NCBI GenBank assembly: GCA_020343655.1
Contig: CP070805.1
Span: 1,742,458 to 1,806,457, forward strand
Source of the DNA: Promethearchaeota archaeon
GTDB taxonomy: Archaea > Asgardarchaeota > Lokiarchaeia > Sigyniarchaeales > SOKP01
Direction: 5' to 3'
DNA: 64,000 nucleotides
In this document: positions 4,092 to 32,579 of the stretch, in pieces
Layout of the letters: every line of letters begins with the position of its first letter
Position numbering within the stretch: the first letter of the stretch is position 1
Notes under the pieces: generated by a model
The model's database searches: none
What the model was told of the DNA's origin: nothing
The model's input: the letters and a program-made list of their open reading frames with translations, nothing else
Translations under genes and position numbers: made by a program

Positions 4092-5366
4092 ATGGTGGAT
4101 TATGTAAATCTGGACTATAGGCCAAGCGAAAATGATTTGATTGCGATGTATTATGTGGAAATTTCACCAGATTGTAAAGATCTAGAACATGCTTCAGAAG
4201 AAATCGCAAAAGAAAGTTCAATCGGTACATGGACAGAAATTGCTACATTATCTACCGAAATAGCAGGACGGCTTAAGCCATCAACTTTCTACATTGACCC
4301 TGAAAATAATATTATAAAGATCGCCTACACTAAAGAACTTTTTGAAGCGTATAATTTACCACAGATTTTAAGTGCTATTGCGGGAAATATATATGGAATG
4401 AAAGTATTAAAATCGCTAAGATTATTAGATATAAATTTTCCTAAAGATATTATCCGCGCCTATAAAGGACCCAAATTCGGAATTGAAGGTATTAAAAAGT
4501 TAACCGAAGTAAATGGAAGACCTCTTCTCGGTACAATCGTAAAACCTAAAGTAGGGCTAAATGAATTCGAACACGCTAATATTTGTGGTGAAGCATGGAT
4601 TGGTGGATTGGATATTGTCAAGGATGATGAAAATTTGACTAGTATGGTTTTTAATAAGTTTGAGAAAAGAATCTCGGAAACATTAAAAATTAGAGATAAA
4701 GTTGAAAATGAAACTGGAGAAAGAAAATTTTATATGCCCAATATAACAGCACCTCTAAGTACCATGAAAAAACGAGCTGATTTTGTGATAGAGAATGGAG
4801 GAGAATATGTAATGGTTGATATTGTAACGATTGGATTTTCAGCTTTACAAGAACTTAGAGAATATCTTGATGATAAAGATGCGATAATTCACGCTCATAG
4901 GGCAATGCACGCAGCTTTTACACGAAATAAGAGACACGGAATGACTATGTTAATTTTAGCGAAATTGATGAGATTAATTGGTATGGACCAATTACACACA
5001 GGAACTATAATAGGAAAAATGGAAGGCGCTAAAAATGAGGTGTTAGAGATAAATAAGGTAATAACAGAACGGAAAATTAAAAATAACAATATGACAACGC
5101 TTAATCAGGATTGGAGAGATATTAAGCCTGTTTTGCCTGTTGCTTCAGGCGGTTTGAGTCCCTTACATATTCCTGAATTAATTGAGACACTAGGTAAAAA
5201 TATGGTTTATCAATTTGGAGGAGGGTGTCATGGTCATCCTGATGGAACTAAAGCCGGAGCGAAAGCGATAAGGCAAGCTACTGAGGCAGTTTTAGAGGGG
5301 TATGATTTAAAAGAATATGCTATGAAGAATGTTGAATTAGCCAGAGCGATTGAAAAATGGGGCTAA
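4092..5366 (+). CDS. rbcL: ribulose-1,5-bisphosphate carboxylase/oxygenase large subunit, form III
   Basis: 424 aa. Motifs GTIVKPKVGL, GGLDIVKDDENL (carbamylated Lys region), HRAMHAAF and a GGG loop. No small-subunit gene is adjacent. Confidence 0.9.
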   Translation: MVDYVNLDYRPSENDLIAMYYVEISPDCKDLEHASEEIAKESSIGTWTEIATLSTEIAGRLKPSTFYIDPENNIIKIAYTKELFEAYNLPQILSAIAGNIYGMKVLKSLRLLDINFPKDIIRAYKGPKFGIEGIKKLTEVNGRPLLGTIVKPKVGLNEFEHANICGEAWIGGLDIVKDDENLTSMVFNKFEKRISETLKIRDKVENETGERKFYMPNITAPLSTMKKRADFVIENGGEYVMVDIVTIGFSALQELREYLDDKDAIIHAHRAMHAAFTRNKRHGMTMLILAKLMRLIGMDQLHTGTIIGKMEGAKNEVLEINKVITERKIKNNNMTTLNQDWRDIKPVLPVASGGLSPLHIPELIETLGKNMVYQFGGGCHGHPDGTKAGAKAIRQATEAVLEGYDLKEYAMKNVELARAIEKWG

Positions 5367-5383
5367 TTTTGAGTTAAAATACT

Positions 5384-6316
5384 TTACACCATTTCCGGGT
5401 ATAATTTTACAAAATAATTAGTCACGTGACTAGAGGCAAAAATTCCTGCTTCTGTGATTAATCCGTCTATATACCTTCTACTTACTGTTTCAAAAGCTGG
5501 ATTTAGGATTTTTATGTTTTCTGGGGGATTTTCCCATACTTCTTTTGGATCTCTCATTTCAATAGTCTCCAAAATACCAAGATTGGTTTCTGGATTGTAT
5601 TTTAATAATGGAGATGCAACATAAAAAGGTACATGTTCTTCATGGGCTACTAATGCTAAGAGTCTTGATCCTATTTTATTGATAATAGTTCCCTCAGAAG
5701 TTATGCTATCTGCTCCGATTAAGATTAAATCAACTTGAAAATGTCTTACAGCCCATCTCATTGCACTATCGATAACGTGAATGACTTCAATACCCACGTC
5801 TAATAACCTTTGTGCTGTTTTCCTGCCCTGTAATCGAGGTTGAGTTTCGGTATTTATTACCCTGAAATTTTTTCCTTGCTTTCTTGCTTCCATTAAAATA
5901 GCTGTTACTAAAGAAGAGTGACAATGTGTCATCACAACATATTTTCTTTCAGCAGCAGGAATCCGTCGTGCTCCAATTTCCGCAATTTTCTTCTTTGAAT
6001 TTTGAAGCATGTCATAATATTGATTCTTGTATTTATCAATAATATCAGAAATATATTCAACAATAATATTTTCTTTTTCTTGTTCTAATTTATTCATTAT
6101 AAATTTCAAGCCATTTTTCATAGCAGGTTCCGTTGGTCTAGTATCAATTAAAATGTCTTGACCATTGTAAAGAAACTCAAAACATTTTTCAATATTCTCA
6201 CATTTTAATCTTTTGGCATAACTACTTAAAAAATCAATTGCACTAATAGCAATGTTACTAGCACCTTGGATCTCTAAGGATTTAATCTTTTGAGCATCTT
6301 TTAATAGTTGTTTCAT
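5384..6316 (-). CDS. ribose-1,5-bisphosphate isomerase (eIF-2B alpha/beta/delta-like family)
   Basis: 310 aa. The GADSITSEGTIINKIGS motif is typical of the e2b2/MtnA family. It lies convergent with, and 17 nt from, form III rbcL. Confidence 0.8.
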   Translation of the reverse strand: MKQLLKDAQKIKSLEIQGASNIAISAIDFLSSYAKRLKCENIEKCFEFLYNGQDILIDTRPTEPAMKNGLKFIMNKLEQEKENIIVEYISDIIDKYKNQYYDMLQNSKKKIAEIGARRIPAAERKYVVMTHCHSSLVTAILMEARKQGKNFRVINTETQPRLQGRKTAQRLLDVGIEVIHVIDSAMRWAVRHFQVDLILIGADSITSEGTIINKIGSRLLALVAHEEHVPFYVASPLLKYNPETNLGILETIEMRDPKEVWENPPENIKILNPAFETVSRRYIDGLITEAGIFASSHVTNYFVKLYPEMV

Positions 6317-26980: not shown

Positions 26981-27369
26981 ACCTTTAATAAATAATAATC
27001 ATATTAAGGATCAAAAAAGCTATCCTTCTTTCTGAAGTAAAACTATAAATTGCTTTTTATAACAGTTATTACCTAATAATTAGGTTTGATAAAGAACTTT
27101 CTATGAAATTTTTAGAAATTTAACGATTAGAGTTAGGAGAATCTCAATAATTTGATATTGTTCATATTTTATAGAGATCGCTATATTAATCCCTCAAAGA
27201 TTTTTAAAAAATGAAATATTGTTTTCAATTTTATTAAGAATTTCAATCTTTTTTAATAATATCGATAATATTTATAAAGGTATTATAAGGTTTTTAAGAG
27301 TAGAAAGGTTAATTAGTAAAATAATTATTCAATAAAACATTTATTTGTTTAAAAAATTTATAGAATATA

Positions 27370-29109
27370 TTGATTCATATGACTGAAGGAATTACTCAAA
27401 CTACTAAAAGTGAAGTAGAAATTATCCGAACAACTACAAGCATTTGTCCAGAATGTGTAAAACATATTGCAGCTGAAATTTACGTTGATCCTGAAACAAA
27501 CTGGGTAATGATGCGAAAAACTTGCAAAGATCATGGAGAATTCAAAGATAAACTTTCTATTAACCCAGAAGATTATAAATGGCAACAAAATTTTACAAAT
27601 GAAATCGGATCCACTATAAACAATTCAACTCAACCTGAATATACTTTATCTGGCATTAAAGAAGTAAATAAAGGATGCCCTTATGATTGTGGTTTGTGTA
27701 CAAACCATAAAAGCGCTCCAAATATATGTTTGATTGATATCACCAATAGGTGTAATTTGACGTGTCCTATTTGTTTTGCTAATGCATCGGCAAAGGGATA
27801 CGTTGTAGAACCTACTTTCAAAGAATTAGTTAGAATTATGGAACATTTCAGATCAATGGAGCCTATTCCAGCAGTTTTACTTCAATTGTCTGGAGGTGAA
27901 CCAACAGTAAGGGATGATCTTCCAGAAATAATCCGTAAGGGTAAAGAACTAGGCTTTACAGAAGTCATGGTAACCACAAACGGAGTTAGATTTGGTAAAT
28001 CACCTGAATTTATGAAAAAATGTATGGATGCCGGAATGGATGCTATTTATCTACAATTTGATGCTACTGATGCTCCCGAAGTTTGGAAAAAGATTAGGGG
28101 AGTTAATTTATGGCCACTTAAAAAACGAGTTATTGAAAATGCTCGCAAGATTGGATTTTATGGCATTATGCTAGTACCAACTGTAGCTAAAGGAGTTAAT
28201 GACAATCAAATCGGGAATATCTTAGATTATGCAAGAGATAATTGTGATATTATCTCAGGAATTATCTTCCAACCTGTCTCATTGACTGGACGTATTAGTT
28301 TTGAAGAATTGATGGACATTAGATATACGACCTCTGATTTAAAGGAAGCCATTAATGCACACACAAACGGCGCAGTAACCAAATTTTATCCGATCGCTAC
28401 TACAGCAAAAATGACGAAATTGTTAGCATGGTTCGATGATATGCCCCCATTTAGTATGACAAGCCATCAAGATTGCGGTTTTTGTACCATATGCATCGTT
28501 AATGATAAAAATCAATGGGAACCTATAGAAAATTACTTCGATGCTGAAGGTTTGATTCGCTGGTCCAACAAAGTATGGGATATGGTTGAAAAGCAAGAAG
28601 TTCCAAAGCCTACCGGTTTACTTAAAGGGATTAACTTAAATGATTTTGGTCAACTTATTGCCAAAATTGGGAATTTCGTAGACGACATGACAAGTTTAGG
28701 TTACCGTCAAGCAATCAAAGCTTATTATTTTGCTGGCGCTACACGATTTATTAAACATCCCGAAAAAATCATTACAAACAAAACTTACCAAGCATTTGCT
28801 CGTTTGGTAATGGCCCCAAACCTAAAATCCGCGGGTGATTTCCTCCATAATCGCAATCTAATGGTTTCATCAATGCATTTCCAAGATAGCTACAATTTCG
28901 ACCTTGATAGAGTATGTAATTGCCTTGTGCATTACGGAGTCATCGATCCAGACGATCCTGCAAAAGTTCGCGAAATCCCGTTCTGTTCTATGAATACACT
29001 TCATCGTCCGATTGTAGAAAGACAACTTGCGTTAGCTGGACAAACAGCAAAAAAGCCTGAAGTAATTCAAGCTGAAATTGAAGAATTGTTACAAACTATT
29101 AAAGAATAA
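27370..29109 (+). CDS. radical SAM protein with N-terminal zinc-ribbon (possible tetraether lipid synthase Tes/GDGT-MAS family)
   Basis: CNLTCPICFA (Cx3Cx2C); N-terminal CPEC...CKDH; 579 aa. The likely true start is the ATG at 27379. The family-level call is tentative. Confidence 0.75.
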   Translation: MIHMTEGITQTTKSEVEIIRTTTSICPECVKHIAAEIYVDPETNWVMMRKTCKDHGEFKDKLSINPEDYKWQQNFTNEIGSTINNSTQPEYTLSGIKEVNKGCPYDCGLCTNHKSAPNICLIDITNRCNLTCPICFANASAKGYVVEPTFKELVRIMEHFRSMEPIPAVLLQLSGGEPTVRDDLPEIIRKGKELGFTEVMVTTNGVRFGKSPEFMKKCMDAGMDAIYLQFDATDAPEVWKKIRGVNLWPLKKRVIENARKIGFYGIMLVPTVAKGVNDNQIGNILDYARDNCDIISGIIFQPVSLTGRISFEELMDIRYTTSDLKEAINAHTNGAVTKFYPIATTAKMTKLLAWFDDMPPFSMTSHQDCGFCTICIVNDKNQWEPIENYFDAEGLIRWSNKVWDMVEKQEVPKPTGLLKGINLNDFGQLIAKIGNFVDDMTSLGYRQAIKAYYFAGATRFIKHPEKIITNKTYQAFARLVMAPNLKSAGDFLHNRNLMVSSMHFQDSYNFDLDRVCNCLVHYGVIDPDDPAKVREIPFCSMNTLHRPIVERQLALAGQTAKKPEVIQAEIEELLQTIKE

Positions 29110-29193
29110 TTCTTTTATATTTTTTCAAATTTTACTTTTGAATTTTAGATTTTTTTTAACTAATATTTTAATATAGAAAAAACTAGAAGAAAT

Positions 29194-29337
29194 TTATTTT
29201 ATTTTCCAGCGGGTTCCATTTGATATATCTTCAAGTTGTATGCTCGCACTTTTTAATTTATCTCTGATTTGATCACTCAATTCGTACATTTTTTCTTATC
29301 TTGCTTTATCACGAATATTTATGATAATATCCATCAA
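29194..29337 (-). pseudogene. relic copy of the cysS 3' end (last 48 codons) with internal stop
   Basis: The reverse strand translates to LMDIIINIRDKAR*EKMYELSDQIRDKLKSASIQLEDISNGTRWKIK*. The cysS C-terminus is LMEIIINIRNKARKEKMYKLSDEIRDKLKEAGIQLEDTPEGTHWKIAS*. Confidence 0.8.
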
Positions 29338-29351
29338 CTATGTTAATTATG

Positions 29352-31088
29352 TTATTTCTTAACCTTTTCCCTCTTAGTATTGGCTAATTCTCCCTCTTGT
29401 TTTAAGGATTTTACCGGTTTTGATTTATCAATGGGAGATTCACACATCCAACACGTGTTATCAATGTCAATTAGTGCTCGTGCACAGTGTTCACAATATA
29501 CTGAATCACAACTTGAGCATATATAGTTATTAAATCCCTCTATATTTCCCTTACAAACCAAACATTTTTTTTGTTCCTTGTATACAGTAATACTTTTTTC
29601 GGAAACTTGAGCTACCTTAATCAGTCTAGATCGAATTGATTTGACAAAATCTTTGCCTAGATGTGCTAATTCCATTCGTTTGGAAACGGGTGCATTTATT
29701 TCTTCTAAATCATCCCACATTTCCAATTGTTGCATAATATCTTCGTGAAGACTTGATATTTCAGTGACTAACTGAACCAAACCGTGTCTCTCGGCTATTC
29801 TTTCTGCCTGTGTTAAAAATCGTCTAGCCTCTTTTATTTTAAATGTAATTAATGAAATTTTTCCCTGCAATAAATATGTTTGAGCTTGCAAAGAGTAAGA
29901 ATTCGTGCGTTCAGATTCTTTTAGCAATCTTGAAATAAGTGGTTGAATATCATCTAGAATTTTCAAATCGTTAGTTAATCGTAATTCCTCAATATAAAAA
30001 TCACAAAGCTCGATCAATGTTGGTGTCCATTCCTCACCTGTACTTCGATTTACACTTTTTTTTGCCGCGTCATACCGGTCAATAAGTTCTATTAGAAGTT
30101 TTTCGGCTTCGGCTCGGTTTCGGATTCGAGAACTTGATTTTAATAACCTTGCTTTTGATAAGATATACGCCCAAAAATCCTTTGGAAGCTTATTTTTTTC
30201 AATTAATTTCTCAAAGCGATACAAATACTCTTGTGCTTTTGCAACAGAATCTTTATCTAGTACTATTCTTATCAAATTATCATATATCAAACCCACTTCC
30301 GATTGAATGAGAAAAGATTTAAATGATTCATGAATTTCCAGGCTTTTTTCAAGATTCTCAACAGCGAGATCCAATTTCCCCTGTTGGTAGTAAATTTGCC
30401 CAATATTACGAAAAGAGAATCCATTAGTTATTTTATATATTTTATAATTCCCTTTGGTAAGCTCAAAATTTCTTTTGTGATATTTTAAGGCTAGCTCTAT
30501 TTCTCCTTTATCAACATATACACTCCCCATTCCTGTTAAAAGAGGTGGTATCAAAAAGGAATATTTTTCATGGTGTTCAAGAATTGCTAAAGTTTTTTTA
30601 TAATTCTCCAAAGCTTGATCGTTGTCACGCTGAGTAGTATATAAATGACCTTTCATATAATAATATAACGCGTTTCGTGGTTCAATTTCTAATAATGGTT
30701 CTTGAAATGCGAGTTTAAGCAATTTTTCACAGTCGTCAACAACTCGCCATAGATCATCACTTCTATGGCGCAAGATTAATTTTTGGTTCCAATATGCCCA
30801 AAATTTAAGATATAATGCATCAAATGAATATAGAGGATTCTCACTTTCTTTATAAATCTGTTCAGCTATTCTCAGTAAATCTTCAATTCTCCATGAAGCC
30901 ATATAATAAATACCTTTAAGGAACTGAAAGTAATGTTTATCTTTTGGGTTGAGATCATTTCGTTTTTCTAAATTAGTAATTAATTGTATTAATGCTTCTT
31001 CTTTGCCTTCATTTAGCAATTGATATCCTCTATCTATTAAATCCGATATTGATTCGGTCATTTTTCTCGGTAAACTAGTTTTGGACAA
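29352..31088 (-). CDS. TPR-repeat protein with C-terminal 8-Cys RING/PHD-spaced zinc finger
   Basis: TPR-like units (e.g. GQIYYQQGKLDLAVENLEKSLEI). C-terminal CLVC-x11-CSSC-x4-CEHC-x10-CWMC. Confidence 0.75.
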   Translation of the reverse strand: MSKTSLPRKMTESISDLIDRGYQLLNEGKEEALIQLITNLEKRNDLNPKDKHYFQFLKGIYYMASWRIEDLLRIAEQIYKESENPLYSFDALYLKFWAYWNQKLILRHRSDDLWRVVDDCEKLLKLAFQEPLLEIEPRNALYYYMKGHLYTTQRDNDQALENYKKTLAILEHHEKYSFLIPPLLTGMGSVYVDKGEIELALKYHKRNFELTKGNYKIYKITNGFSFRNIGQIYYQQGKLDLAVENLEKSLEIHESFKSFLIQSEVGLIYDNLIRIVLDKDSVAKAQEYLYRFEKLIEKNKLPKDFWAYILSKARLLKSSSRIRNRAEAEKLLIELIDRYDAAKKSVNRSTGEEWTPTLIELCDFYIEELRLTNDLKILDDIQPLISRLLKESERTNSYSLQAQTYLLQGKISLITFKIKEARRFLTQAERIAERHGLVQLVTEISSLHEDIMQQLEMWDDLEEINAPVSKRMELAHLGKDFVKSIRSRLIKVAQVSEKSITVYKEQKKCLVCKGNIEGFNNYICSSCDSVYCEHCARALIDIDNTCWMCESPIDKSKPVKSLKQEGELANTKREKVKK

Positions 31089-31130
31089 TTAATATTGAAT
31101 TATCTTTTATAAATAATGTCCTATCAAATC

Positions 31131-32579
31131 TCAAGAAGCAATCTTCCAATGAGTTCCTTCTGGTGTATCTTCAAGTTGTATTCCTGCTTCTTTTAATTTA
31201 TCTCTTATTTCATCACTCAGTTTGTACATTTTTTCTTTTCTTGCTTTATTACGAATATTTATGATAATCTCCATTAATTCATTTAATTTAATATCGACAC
31301 CCTCTTCTTTCTTCATGAAATCAAGACCAAAAATGCCGAGGAGTTCAAGTAGCGTTTCCCTTGCTTTAATAAGGATTTCTTTTTTGTTATCTAATGAACT
31401 ATTAATGTTTTTTATAAACTCATAAATTACAGCAAGAGCTTTTGGATTATTAAAATCATCATCCATCGCTTCTTCAAAATCTTTTCTCACATTTTCTATT
31501 GCTTGTTCGAGCGTTTTTTCACTTCCACCAGATGAGTTTTCGATTGCACTTAAACAATTTCTTATTTTTTCTACATTATTTTTAGCAATTTCAATTACAT
31601 CTTGATTCCAATCCACTGCAGAACGATAATGACCACTTACAAGTCCCATTCGCACAACAAGACCTCCGTGCTTGTCAATTAATTCCCAGGCAGTTACATA
31701 ATTTCCCAAGCTTTTGCTCATCTTTTTTCCATTTAACGTAATAAATTCAGCATGCATCCAATAATTAACAAATTTCTTTCCAGTGGCAGCTTCAGATTGC
31801 GCAATTTCATTAGGATGATGAGTAGGGATGTGGTCAATTCCTCCTCCATGGATATCTAATGTATCTCCTAAGTATTTCATACCCATTACAGAACATTCAA
31901 GATGCCACCCAGGATATCCCTCTCCCCAAGGAGAGTTCCATCTCATAATATGAACTTGATCCCCCTTCCGTGCATTTAACCATAGGGCAAAATCAAAATA
32001 GTTTTTTTTCAAGGGATCTTGATCTACACGTGCTCTAGCTTTCTCTTCATCAAGTTTTAATCTCCCAAGTTTTCCGTATTCTTTAAATTTAGTAACATCA
32101 TAATACACATTACCTTGTACTTCATAGGCATATCCTTTATCTAACAAAATTTGAATAATTTCTATCATTTCAGGAATGAGAGCTGTTGCTCTTGGGCTTA
32201 CATTTGGTCTTTGAATGTTTAAGTAATCTACGACTTGCCAATATTCTTGAATTTGTTTATCAACCAGTTCCCAAGGGTTGATTTTTTGCTCTCTTGCTCT
32301 TTTCTCTACTTTATCTTCTCCTTGATCTGCATCATCGGTTAAGTGACCAACATCAGTAAAATTCTGAACATGAAAAACATCATAACCCTTGTATCGAAGG
32401 TATCTTATAATTACATCCCAGGAACTATAGGTTCTAGCATTACCGATATGGACATCATCATAAACAGTCTGTCCACAAGTGTAGATTCTCACTCGACCCT
32501 CTTCTATAGGTTTAAAAACCTCTTTTTGCCGAGTCATCGTGTTATAGATTTCAAGCATAAAATAATAAAGATAAGACAA
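31131..32579 (-). CDS. cysS: cysteine--tRNA ligase
   Basis: HIGH motif HIGNARTY, KMSKS motif, class I core; 482 aa. Confidence 0.92.
   Translation of the reverse strand: MSYLYYFMLEIYNTMTRQKEVFKPIEEGRVRIYTCGQTVYDDVHIGNARTYSSWDVIIRYLRYKGYDVFHVQNFTDVGHLTDDADQGEDKVEKRAREQKINPWELVDKQIQEYWQVVDYLNIQRPNVSPRATALIPEMIEIIQILLDKGYAYEVQGNVYYDVTKFKEYGKLGRLKLDEEKARARVDQDPLKKNYFDFALWLNARKGDQVHIMRWNSPWGEGYPGWHLECSVMGMKYLGDTLDIHGGGIDHIPTHHPNEIAQSEAATGKKFVNYWMHAEFITLNGKKMSKSLGNYVTAWELIDKHGGLVVRMGLVSGHYRSAVDWNQDVIEIAKNNVEKIRNCLSAIENSSGGSEKTLEQAIENVRKDFEEAMDDDFNNPKALAVIYEFIKNINSSLDNKKEILIKARETLLELLGIFGLDFMKKEEGVDIKLNELMEIIINIRNKARKEKMYKLSDEIRDKLKEAGIQLEDTPEGTHWKIAS

What the first reader, a model, noticed from the sequence alone, without database searches (positions are those of the whole stretch)
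29194..31295. Diverged duplicate of the cysS 3' end brackets the TPR/zinc-finger gene (integration scar?)
The last 48 codons of cysS (31131-31277) recur at 29194-29337 on the same strand. By eye I counted about 14 mismatches over the best roughly 108 nt. The copy has a one-codon length difference near the stop and an internal TAA replacing a Lys codon. Weaker similarity continues about 15-20 nt further, into the end of the TPR gene.

The only gene between the two copies is the 578-aa TPR + RING/PHD-like zinc-finger gene (29352-31088). This geometry is what site-specific integration into the 3' end of a host gene produces: the incoming DNA supplies a replacement 3' end and the displaced original decays at the far junction. 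No integrase remains, so the roughly 1.9-kb segment would be a remnant or an unusual small cassette.
Basis: seen in the sequence. Interest (0 to 1): 0.62.

Follow-up and report, generated by a model that had tools for sequence, protein, structure and literature searches.

The report
Displaced cysS tail marks gene insertion
In this Loki-type Asgard archaeon, one TPR/RING-like gene was spliced in at the tail of the cysteinyl-tRNA synthetase gene and the old 47-codon tail was left behind as a decaying scar; this footprint of gene gain is already known and recurs in this genus, so it is informative but ordinary.

Summary
The repeat is real. cysS codons 436-482 (31131-31274) recur at 29194-29334 on the same strand, 84% identical over a 132-nt core (blastn E 8e-35). 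These are the only two copies in the 2.27-Mb genome. Logan contigs from sediment metagenomes of five studies contain one or both junctions.

The downstream copy has one premature TAA. It is still joined to the spacer that follows cysS in the closest relatives, so it sits at the ancestral position. About 30 congeners keep cysS and the radical-SAM gene convergent, with a spacer of 102-5214 nt holding different cargo. None has this TPR gene.

The nearest homologue of the TPR gene (84.6% nt) lies elsewhere, beside an RM gene. It shares 19 nt past the stop codon, which fixes an illegitimate junction at 29333/29332 (microhomology AT).

The insert encodes no integrase, and the genome has a single Xer-like recombinase. 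Equivalent scars at two other genes have different breakpoints in different species, and their copies differ almost only synonymously, which indicates DNA imported from diverged relatives.

Verdict: this is an integrase-independent insertion scar of the "long target duplication" / homology-facilitated illegitimate recombination / 3'-end displacement kind, at a gene-flux hot spot. Site-specific integration is not supported.

The parts
31131..32579 (-). cysS, cysteinyl-tRNA synthetase (482 aa), intact
   Evidence: ORF. Pfam tRNA-synt_1e E 1.7e-105, DALR_2 6e-15. 75-93% aa identity to congeners.
31131..31274 (-). R1: live 3' end of cysS (codons 436-482 plus stop), the upstream copy of the repeat. 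Its last three codons (IAS) and the flank beyond do not align with the ancestral tail or flank.
   Evidence: Flank test p=0.44-0.77. Contigs X1, X3, X5, X7 and X8 span the TPR-R1-cysS stretch.
31062..31130 (-). 69-nt spacer between the cysS stop and the probable ATG of the TPR gene. It contains a TATA-like TTTATAAA at 31106-31113. It is part of the inserted DNA.
   Evidence: Read from the sequence. Not alignable with any relative's cysS downstream spacer. The promoter role is an inference.
29352..31088 (-). Inserted gene: TPR protein with a C-terminal 8-Cys RING-like zinc finger. The ORF is 578 aa from TTG; the probable start is the ATG at 31061.
   Evidence: Pfam TPR_12/TPR_1/TPR_MalT; zf-C3HC4_3 at 21.6 bits, below its 27-bit cut-off. 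Weak RING matches in PDB, best E 0.0026. The family is expanded in the genus, 27 matches at E<=1e-20 in one genome. Best homologues are 81% aa (P0005) and 57% aa (P0004), both in other genomic contexts.
29333..29351 (-). The TPR gene's own 3' flank (19 nt), which came in with the gene. It ends at the illegitimate junction 29333/29332.
   Evidence: Homology with the TPR homologue on L071 continues 16/19 past the stop codon and then stops. Loose ends of R2-bearing contigs begin at the equivalent of 29334.
29194..29334 (-). R2: displaced relic of the cysS 3' end (47 codons). It has one premature TAA at 29296-29298 and its own TAA stop at 29194-29196. Bases 29333-29334 (AT) are shared microhomology.
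   Evidence: About 11-12 substitutions are derived in R2, spread over all codon positions, against 5-6 derived in R1.
29110..29193 (.). Ancestral cysS/radical-SAM spacer, still attached to R2. It includes a T6 run on the minus strand (29177-29182) that probably was the cysS terminator.
   Evidence: Collinear with the spacers of G020 (L041) and G015 (L057): blastn 29162-29348 vs L041 at 78.7%, alignment, flank test p=0.0005. The terminator role is an inference.
27370..29109 (+). Convergent radical-SAM gene (579 aa; Zn_ribbon_HMPTM plus Radical_SAM). It forms the other wall of the hot spot.
   Evidence: Pfam. Convergent neighbour of cysS in every congener where both genes are on one contig.

Best explanation
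This is a recombination scar of gene gain, not the remnant of a mobile element.

The ancestor had cysS followed by a spacer of about 85-350 nt and the convergent radical-SAM gene, as the three closest relatives still do. A piece of DNA then became fixed at the tail of cysS. It carried a cysS 3' end, a 69-nt promoter-bearing spacer, one TPR/RING-like gene and 19 nt of that gene's own 3' flank.

One side of the event was anchored by homology within cysS. The other end was joined illegitimately (microhomology AT, imperfect 5/7) to cysS codon 436 of the resident chromosome. cysS therefore stays intact (R1). The resident last 47 codons (R2), still attached to the old spacer and terminator, were pushed 1.94 kb downstream and have since decayed.

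This is the process called homology-facilitated illegitimate recombination. [quoted passage not shown]

What is shown: the repeat, its ancestral position, the insertion, the junction, the absence of a recombinase, and the recurrence of the pattern. What is inferred: that R1 came from a donor rather than from a local duplication, and which side carried the homologous anchor.
For: - R2 plus its flank is collinear with the cysS end plus spacer of G020 and G015 (p=0.0005). The R1 flank is not (p=0.44-0.77).
- The TPR gene is absent from this spacer in about 30 congeners. There is no homologue above 70% nt in 54 genus genomes.
- The nearest homologue (84.6% nt over 1399 nt) lies beside a type IIG RM gene on metagenome contigs. 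It shares 19 nt past the stop codon, which places the junction at 29333/29332.
- The insert has no integrase, and the genome has one Xer-like recombinase.
- The same geometry occurs twice more in this genome, and there the copies differ almost only synonymously. For the vWA-like gene, 26 synonymous versus 3 non-synonymous differences, pS 0.58 and pN 0.017. For the Roadblock gene, 41 identical residues over the tblastn match and, in the 36 codons scored, 19 synonymous and 1 non-synonymous step, pS 0.77. The two copies must therefore have evolved as working genes in different lineages.
- G010 carries the vWA cargo ORF at 97% identity, against about 85% for the flanking genes, and has no relic.
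- Further scars occur at the same hot spots in other species: G005 (rSAM end), G023 (810 nt), G020 (vWA) and G018 (Roadblock). Their breakpoints differ from those in G000.
- The structure is present in metagenomes of five studies, with no empty-site joints.
Against: - For cysS itself a donor origin of R1 is not shown. R1 and R2 share a derived ATG-TAC (Met-Tyr, versus Asn-Tyr/Phe in 18 of the 19 relatives aligned and Glu-Tyr in one), which makes them look like sisters.
- pS 0.29 / pN 0.13 between the copies does not differ from what working orthologues show in this weakly constrained tail (ratios 0.18-0.46).
- No genome with a cysS-TPR adjacency lacking the relic (a donor-type arrangement) was found in 54 congeners, the 5.8-billion-protein collection or the metagenome contigs.
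- The drop in identity of cysS to G020 from 98-99% to 88% at about 31320 could mark the homologous crossover. But the whole gene is mosaic (79-99%), so this is weak evidence.
- The mirror version, in which R2 plus spacer is the ragged end of a tract imported from the radical-SAM side, fits equally well.
- HFIR has been demonstrated experimentally only in bacteria.
Confidence: 0.5

Rival explanations
1. In-situ duplicative insertion, i.e. a true long target duplication. The TPR cassette (promoter, gene, 19 nt) was copied or ligated into cysS in one step. This could happen by replication template switching that returned about 139 nt upstream of the departure point, or by fill-in of a staggered break. 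On this reading R1 and R2 were identical at birth. R1 acquired its last codons (IAS*) from the insert, and R2 has decayed since.
For: R1 and R2 share a two-base derived state (ATG-TAC) absent from the 19 relatives aligned. Polarised changes are about 11-12 on R2, spread over all codon positions, against 5-6 on R1. That ratio fits one neutral and one constrained copy since a common origin. The repeat ends 2-3 codons before the ancestral stop, as expected for a random breakpoint. It needs only one event. It matches 'insertion with long target duplication' as described for RM genes (PMC2853133).
Against: The other two scars in the same genome cannot have arisen this way (pS 0.58-0.77 with nearly no amino-acid change). 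The R1 tail WKIAS* resembles the 5-residue tails of other species (WNITS*, WKITT*; 14/18 nt identical to G001), as a donor allele would. Five of the six R1-derived changes are non-synonymous. Gene conversion between the copies could explain the shared ATG-TAC.
Confidence: 0.22
2. Campbell-type 'pop-in'. A circularised fragment carrying a cysS tail plus the TPR gene integrated by a single homologous crossover within the cysS tail. The whole homologous stretch of the circle was thereby duplicated, and the TPR-flank/cysS joint is the circle's closure point.
For: It explains both repeat boundaries at once. Homology ends near the stop codon, and the other boundary abuts the cargo. It uses the same topology as laboratory pop-in constructs in archaea (own knowledge). 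No recombinase gene is needed.
Against: No circular form or second integrated copy was seen. Contigs show no joints. It needs a pre-existing joint between the TPR flank and cysS codon 436, which only moves the illegitimate event elsewhere. The closest TPR homologue carries no cysS fragment.
Confidence: 0.12
3. One reading: site-specific integration of a small element into an att site in the 3' end of cysS by an integrase that has since been lost or acts in trans. The 1.9-kb segment would be a remnant or a non-autonomous cassette.
For: The geometry (intact gene end, cargo, displaced end) is what integrase-mediated islands in tRNA or protein genes show. Relatives have an empty site. The site is a hot spot with three scars among about 30 species.
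Against: No integrase or transposase lies in the insert or its neighbours. There is a single Xer-like recombinase in the 2.27 Mb. The three scars in the hot spot use three different genes' ends (cysS, the rSAM gene, an HdrD-like gene). At the vWA and Roadblock genes the breakpoints differ between species (75 vs 54 codons; 41 vs 32 codons). The longest exact match between R1 and R2 is 18 nt (read), with no shared core motif among scars. The same TPR gene elsewhere lacks such flanks.
Confidence: 0.07
4. Chance similarity in AT-rich DNA, or a chimeric assembly joining two strains.
For: The genome is 29% GC, and it is a scaffolded MAG with 13,800 N.
Against: E 8e-35 to 2.5e-37. The similarity follows the cysS reading frame. 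R2 begins abruptly at codon 436 and carries a stop, so it is not another strain's gene. Error-free contigs from other samples span both junctions.
Confidence: 0.01

Closest known systems
Insertion with long target duplication (Nobusato et al. 2000; Furuta, Abe & Kobayashi 2010, PMC2853133)
   Same: A few genes are inserted with no mobility gene and flanked by a direct duplication of 46-423 bp of unique target sequence that is single-copy in the empty-site genome. The repeat often overlaps the 3' end of a gene.
   Different: It was described for restriction-modification genes in bacteria, and no archaeal case survived that screen. Here the cargo is a TPR/RING-like gene in an Asgard archaeon. 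The copies are 84% identical, not near-identical, and one is a decayed gene tail.
Homology-facilitated illegitimate recombination (de Vries & Wackernagel 2002; Prudhomme et al. 2002; Meier & Wackernagel 2003, as summarised in PMC5361080)
   Same: One end of the incoming DNA is anchored by homology in a conserved gene. The non-homologous end joins at a short microhomology nearby. No dedicated recombinase is involved.
   Different: It was shown experimentally in naturally transformable bacteria. Here it is only inferred from sequence. The homologous crossover point and the DNA uptake route in this archaeon are unknown.
C-terminal (3'-end) displacement at rhs/CDI loci and T6SS effector-immunity arrays (Jackson et al. 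2009; Kirchberger et al. 2017, PMC5361080)
   Same: An incoming module supplies a new gene end and shifts the old 3' end downstream, leaving orphan 3' fragments. The process recurs at the same loci.
   Different: Those systems exchange functionally different toxin tips together with immunity genes, under diversifying selection. Here the two tails are allelic versions of a housekeeping enzyme's end and the cargo is an unrelated gene.
Integrase-mediated genomic islands and proviruses in the 3' ends of tRNA or protein genes (attL/attR duplication); Asgard elements integrate next to tRNA genes (PMC8813620)
   Same: An intact gene end, cargo and a displaced partial copy; relatives have an empty site.
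   Different: There is no integrase, no fixed crossover core, variable breakpoints and a 1.8-kb single-gene cargo. The Asgard elements described so far are 8-44 kb and tRNA-linked.

Membership tests
Site-specific integrative element (integrase plus att) | A tyrosine or serine recombinase gene within or next to the element | tested here: not met
   The only ORF between the copies is the TPR gene. The neighbours are cysS, a radical-SAM gene, a 663-aa protein and MoxR. One PF00589 hit in the genome, at 298390-298908.
Site-specific integrative element (integrase plus att) | A fixed crossover position or common core in independent insertions at the same target gene | tested here: not met
   vWA gene: the relic starts 75 codons from the end in G000 and 54 in G020. 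Roadblock gene: 41 codons in G000 and 32 in G018. The cysS/rSAM hot spot uses three different gene ends.
Site-specific integrative element (integrase plus att) | An empty site in related genomes | tested here: met
   cysS and the rSAM gene are convergent with no TPR gene in about 30 congeners. G020, G010 and G015 have spacers of 145-349 nt.
Insertion with long target duplication | A direct repeat over 30 bp flanking an insert under 20 kb; the repeat is unique in the genome and single-copy in the empty-site genome | tested here: met
   139-141 nt repeat, 1.8-kb insert, two copies only. Relatives have one copy that aligns with both.
Insertion with long target duplication | No mobility-related gene in the insert | tested here: met
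Insertion with long target duplication | The two copies derive from one resident target (identical at birth) | tested here: inconclusive
   The shared derived ATG-TAC favours it. The different tail and flank of R1, and the synonymous-only divergence at the other two scars, argue for a donor allele.
Homology-facilitated illegitimate recombination | An illegitimate joint at a short microhomology close to the homologous anchor | tested here: met
   TPR flank ...TTGAT | GGATATT... cysS codon 436. The exact overlap is AT, and both parents match 5/7. The loose-end position at 31274 agrees.
Homology-facilitated illegitimate recombination | A donor-derived tract extending from a homologous crossover in the anchor gene | tested here: inconclusive
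   Identity to G020 falls from 98-99% to 88% at about 31320, but cysS is mosaic throughout. No donor was found.
Homology-facilitated illegitimate recombination | Dependence on the host's homologous recombination machinery and on DNA uptake | not testable with these tools
   Needs genetics in a cultured relative.
RING-type zinc finger (for the cargo protein) | Cross-brace eight-ligand motif scoring above the family threshold | tested here: inconclusive
   Eight Cys with spacing 2-11-2-4-2-10-2. Pfam zf-C3HC4_3 scores 21.6 bits against a cut-off of 27. Best PDB match is a RING of ZNF183-like 1, E 0.0026. No structure was predicted.
Class I cysteinyl-tRNA synthetase (for the host gene) | Catalytic domain tRNA-synt_1e plus DALR anticodon-binding domain, full length | tested here: met
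   The ORF is intact through R1.

The most novel reading that the evidence does not exclude
In Promethearchaeota (Loki-type Asgard archaea), recombinase-free insertion addressed by homology to the tails of conserved genes may be a regular route of gene gain. Small cassettes, often members of the hugely expanded TPR, LRR and beta-helix repeat-protein families, would enter the spacers behind conserved convergent genes using the gene tail as the homology arm. Displaced tails would then serve as datable footprints of inter-species DNA import. Seven such scars were seen in five species at only three loci.
Probability: 0.2. Interest if true: 0.55.

Novelty: new member of a known kind. Interest (0 to 1): 0.3.

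Why it matters
The scar shows concretely how one member of a rapidly expanding Asgard repeat-protein family reached its present place. It arrived without any mobile-element machinery, at a spacer that turns over in every species of the genus.

Displaced gene tails whose copies differ only synonymously are direct evidence of DNA import from diverged relatives. They could be counted to measure recombination-driven gene flux in Asgard archaea, whose large accessory gene sets are of interest for eukaryogenesis.

For annotation, the finding warns that 29194-29334 is a relic and not a gene. It also shows that the last codons of cysS may be of foreign origin.

Tried and rejected
1. Extending the duplication past the stop codon through a 9-nt indel looked plausible by eye. 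Local alignment of the R1 flank against the R2 flank or the G020/G015 spacers was no better than shuffles (p=0.44-0.77), so this was rejected.

2. dN/dS to decide between donor allele and local duplicate. For cysS the ratio (0.46) equals that of working orthologues in this tail, so it is uninformative. It was decisive only for the other two scars.

3. Mapping the homologous crossover from the identity profile against G020. cysS is mosaic (79-99%), so the step at about 31320 is only suggestive.

4. Searching for a donor arrangement or a closer TPR orthologue. I tried 40 relatives by protein, 54 genus genomes by DNA, the 5.8-billion-protein collection, contexts of the two best hits and metagenome contigs. 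Only a 5'-truncated, split copy beside an RM gene and a 57% homologue beside RFC were found.

5. Compositional contrast: none. GC is 0.324 against 0.342 and 0.360; GC3 is 0.242 against 0.236 and 0.260.

6. Own-genome paralogues of the TPR gene flanked by host-gene duplications: none. No direct repeat lies near 1457373, 1130837 or 512739.

7. Empty-site or circular forms in public runs: no joints.

8. The inverted repeat 27295-27327 / 29344-29376 (79%) was treated as chance in AT-rich DNA and not pursued.

9. For the Roadblock scar, neither copy is closer to any sampled species, and there the flank of the live copy is the conserved one. The direction of import can therefore differ between scars.


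Full report
**1. The observation**

The window holds a direct repeat, 29201-29348 / 31141-31288: 148 nt without gaps, 82% identity, spacing 1940 (MAFFT alignment). Self-blastn of the region gives 83% over 149 nt, E 8e-35. A search of the whole 2.27-Mb assembly finds only these two copies (E 2.5e-37 for the second).

The upstream copy in gene orientation is the real end of cysS. This is ORF 31131-32579 on the minus strand, 482 aa, with Pfam tRNA-synt_1e at 1.7e-105 and DALR_2. The second copy reads in the same frame as a recognisable but broken cysS tail.

Logan contigs from sediment metagenomes of five studies carry the structure:
- Error-free contigs span 29050-29608 and 31064-31459 (X1) and 30619-31320 (X5).
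- R2-bearing contigs laid on R1 run off at exactly 31274 into the end of the TPR gene in X5, X8 and X13.
- No contig skips the insert.

The repeat is therefore real, significant and not an assembly artefact.

**2. Exact anatomy**

The best relative of the TPR gene at the DNA level lies on metagenome contigs L071-L073 (84.6% over 1399 nt). There it is 5'-truncated, split into two ORFs, and sits behind a type IIG restriction-modification gene, not near cysS.

The window and L071 stay alike for 19 nt past the TPR stop codon (16/19) and then part. From that point the window follows cysS. The joint is therefore ...TTGAT | GGATATT... at 29333/29332. The exact shared overlap is only AT, and each parent matches 5 of 7 bases in the junction zone.

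The cysS-derived relic (R2) is thus 29194-29334, and its counterpart (R1) is 31131-31274. Over the 132-nt core they differ at 21 sites, 84.1% identity. Two of the three in-frame stops I first counted lie in that flank.

At the other end, similarity between R1 and R2 stops at Trp-Lys(-Ile), two to three codons before the ancestral stop. The R1 tail (IAS*) and the 69 nt up to the probable ATG of the TPR gene (31061) do not align with R2's flank or with relatives' spacers (p=0.44-0.77 against shuffles). R2's flank does align with the spacer of the closest relative (p=0.0005; blastn 29162-29348 vs L041; alignment).

The inserted DNA therefore runs from about 31140 to 29333. It comprises a spacer with a TATA-like TTTATAAA (31106-31113), the TPR gene and 19 nt. 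The promoter and terminator assignments are inferences from the sequence.

**3. Relatives**

The assembly belongs to a Loki-type Asgard genus. The contigs carrying the closest cysS homologues are mostly titled Promethearchaeota or Promethearchaeia MAGs.

In all 19 congeners first fetched, and in about a dozen more, cysS and the 579-aa radical-SAM gene are convergent neighbours. The spacer between them ranges from 102 to 5214 nt and holds different things:
- nothing, in the three closest relatives (145-349 nt);
- an SRPBCC-like ORF;
- an SDR plus hydrolase pair;
- a NosD-type beta-helix protein;
- an LRR protein;
- an aldolase-like gene next to a 303-aa ORF (named from their sequences, not scanned against Pfam);
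- an HdrD-like gene plus four others.

None holds a homologue of this TPR gene. Across 54 genus genomes the best DNA match is 68-70%. By protein, the family is hugely expanded in the genus, 27 matches at E<=1e-20 in one genome, but the best congener hit is 44%. The gene shows no GC or codon-usage contrast with its neighbours.

The TPR gene is thus a lineage-specific insertion into a spacer that is a hot spot of gene turnover.

**4. The same footprint elsewhere**

Self-comparison of the spacers shows two more scars in this hot spot:
- In G005, the last 98 nt of the radical-SAM gene plus 58 nt of flank recur 2 kb on, across a beta-helix gene (156 nt, 93%).
- In G023, the last 810 nt of an HdrD-like gene recur 3.9 kb on (94.7%).

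A scan of the whole G000 genome for local direct repeats gave 34 pairs, mostly tandem paralogues. Two further pairs have the cysS geometry:
- A vWA-like 474-aa gene. Its last 75 codons recur 992 nt downstream across a 111-aa ORF, with 26 synonymous and 3 non-synonymous differences (pS 0.58, pN 0.017, one stop).
- A Roadblock/LC7 gene. Its last 41 codons recur 2.6 kb downstream and encode an identical peptide. In the 36 codons scored there are 19 synonymous and 1 non-synonymous step (pS 0.77).

Fragments cannot keep a peptide by selection. In those two cases the two copies must therefore have diverged as working genes in different lineages and been brought together recently, which means one is imported DNA.

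G010 carries the vWA cargo ORF at 97% identity, while the flanking genes are about 85% identical, and it has no relic. This is a donor-type arrangement and shows recent exchange.

G020 has its own relic of the vWA tail, and G018 its own relic of the Roadblock tail. Their breakpoints differ from those in G000: 54 vs 75 codons, and 32 vs 41 codons.

**5. Mechanism**

Several observations speak against a site-specific integrase and for general recombination:
- variable breakpoints at one gene;
- three different gene ends used in one hot spot;
- a microhomology joint;
- no recombinase in any cargo;
- a single Xer-like tyrosine recombinase in the assembly.

The best-fitting process is homology-facilitated illegitimate recombination. 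Incoming DNA from a relative is anchored by homology in a conserved gene, and its non-homologous end is joined nearby. If that joint falls inside the resident gene, the resident tail survives downstream as a relic. This is the explanation proposed for orphan 3' ends at rhs loci and in Vibrio T6SS arrays (PMC5361080). The product is what Kobayashi's group called 'insertion with long target duplication' (PMC2853133).

For cysS itself, the step 'R1 came from a donor' is not proven. R1 and R2 share a derived ATG-TAC that none of the 19 relatives aligned has. In addition, the polarised changes (about 11-12 on R2 over all codon positions, 5-6 on R1) fit a local duplication followed by decay of one copy.

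On the other side, the R1 tail resembles the five-residue tails of other species, and five of its six derived changes are non-synonymous. pS/pN between the copies (0.29/0.13) is uninformative because this tail is weakly constrained even between working orthologues.

My probabilities are:
- import by HFIR-like recombination, 0.5;
- in-situ duplicative insertion, 0.22;
- single-crossover integration of a circle, 0.12;
- integrase-mediated integration, 0.07.

The mirror possibility, that R2 plus spacer is the ragged end of a tract imported from the radical-SAM side, is included in the first figure.

**6. Age**

R2 has about 0.1 derived substitutions per site. cysS of G000 and its nearest sampled species differ at pS 0.37. 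The event is therefore younger than that split. It is nevertheless old enough to be present in every sample examined that holds this stretch, including variants about 95% identical.

**7. The cargo**

The cargo protein has TPR repeats (Pfam TPR_12 5e-16, TPR_MalT 7.5e-14). It ends in an eight-cysteine finger with spacing 2-11-2-4-2-10-2. That finger scores below the RING threshold in Pfam (21.6 vs 27 bits) and weakly against solved RING domains (best E 0.0026). 'RING-like' is a fair label, but E3 ligase activity is untested.

**8. Comparison with what is known, and novelty**

The geometry is known from integrase-borne islands, from long-target-duplication insertions and from 3'-end displacement. 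The mechanism proposed is known from bacteria. The screen of PMC2853133 found no archaeal case among RM genes.

Earlier unchecked notes of this scan report the same footprint in Promethearchaeum and in many CPR bacteria. I used them only as a lead to the literature. The Asgard mobile elements described so far are large and tRNA-linked (PMC8813620).

I classify this as a new member of a known kind. It is of moderate interest mainly because the pattern is recurrent and datable in an Asgard genus.

Noticed in passing
window 29110-31130, compared with loci L041-L059 and L141-L172: The spacer between convergent cysS and the radical-SAM gene is a gene-flux hot spot. It ranges from 102 to 5214 nt in about 30 species. 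Its contents vary: an SRPBCC-like ORF, an SDR plus hydrolase pair, a NosD beta-helix protein, an LRR protein, an aldolase-like gene next to a 303-aa ORF (named from their sequences only, not scanned), an HdrD-like cluster, or nothing.
   Followed up: yes
L047 (G005) 203-358 / 2208-2363 of the extracted spacer; L052 (G023) 801-1610 / 4700-5508: There are two more tail-duplication scars in the same hot spot in other species. One is the rSAM end plus 58 nt of flank (156 nt, 93%, cargo a NosD-like gene). The other is the last 810 nt of an HdrD-like gene (94.7%, cargo four genes).
   Followed up: partly
own genome C1:1517797-1518027 / 1518789-1519019 (outside the window): The last 75 codons of a vWA-like 474-aa gene are duplicated 992 nt downstream across a 111-aa ORF, with 26 synonymous versus 3 non-synonymous differences. 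G010 has the same cargo ORF at 97% identity without the relic. G020 has an independent relic starting 54 codons from the end.
   Followed up: partly
own genome C1:1446835-1446957 / 1444219-1444341 (outside the window): The last 41 codons of the Roadblock/LC7 gene recur 2.6 kb downstream and encode an identical peptide (36 codons scored: 19 synonymous and 1 non-synonymous step). Here the flank of the live copy is the conserved one, so the relic may be the ragged end of an imported tract. G018 has its own 32-codon relic.
   Followed up: partly
window 31131-32579 vs L041 (G020): cysS is a mosaic relative to the nearest species. Identity in 90-nt windows swings from 79% to 99%, with a 98-99% tract at 31320-31470. 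This suggests frequent short recombination tracts between species.
   Followed up: partly
L071 7653-9023 (also L072, L073, L220, L221): The closest homologue of the TPR gene (81% aa, 84.6% nt) is a 5'-truncated copy split into 112-aa and 340-aa ORFs. It lies directly behind a type IIG RM gene (N6_Mtase/Eco57I/TaqI_C) on contigs from marine sediment metagenomes, including LAZR01015560.
   Followed up: partly
genus genomes G001-G069: The TPR family of the cargo is massively expanded in this genus, with 27 matches at E<=1e-20 in one genome, often in tandem (for example G024:C68 80.9-85.9 kb and G006 3.208-3.218 Mb). G000 itself has only four matches.
   Followed up: no
window 27295-27327 and 29344-29376: A 33-nt inverted repeat (79% complementary) links the region upstream of the radical-SAM gene with the TPR-stop/R2 junction. 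It is probably chance in AT-rich DNA.
   Followed up: no
own genome C1:640427-640507 / 641325-641406: An 82-nt intergenic direct repeat (90%) spaced 898 nt. It is not part of a gene tail, and its nature is unknown.
   Followed up: no
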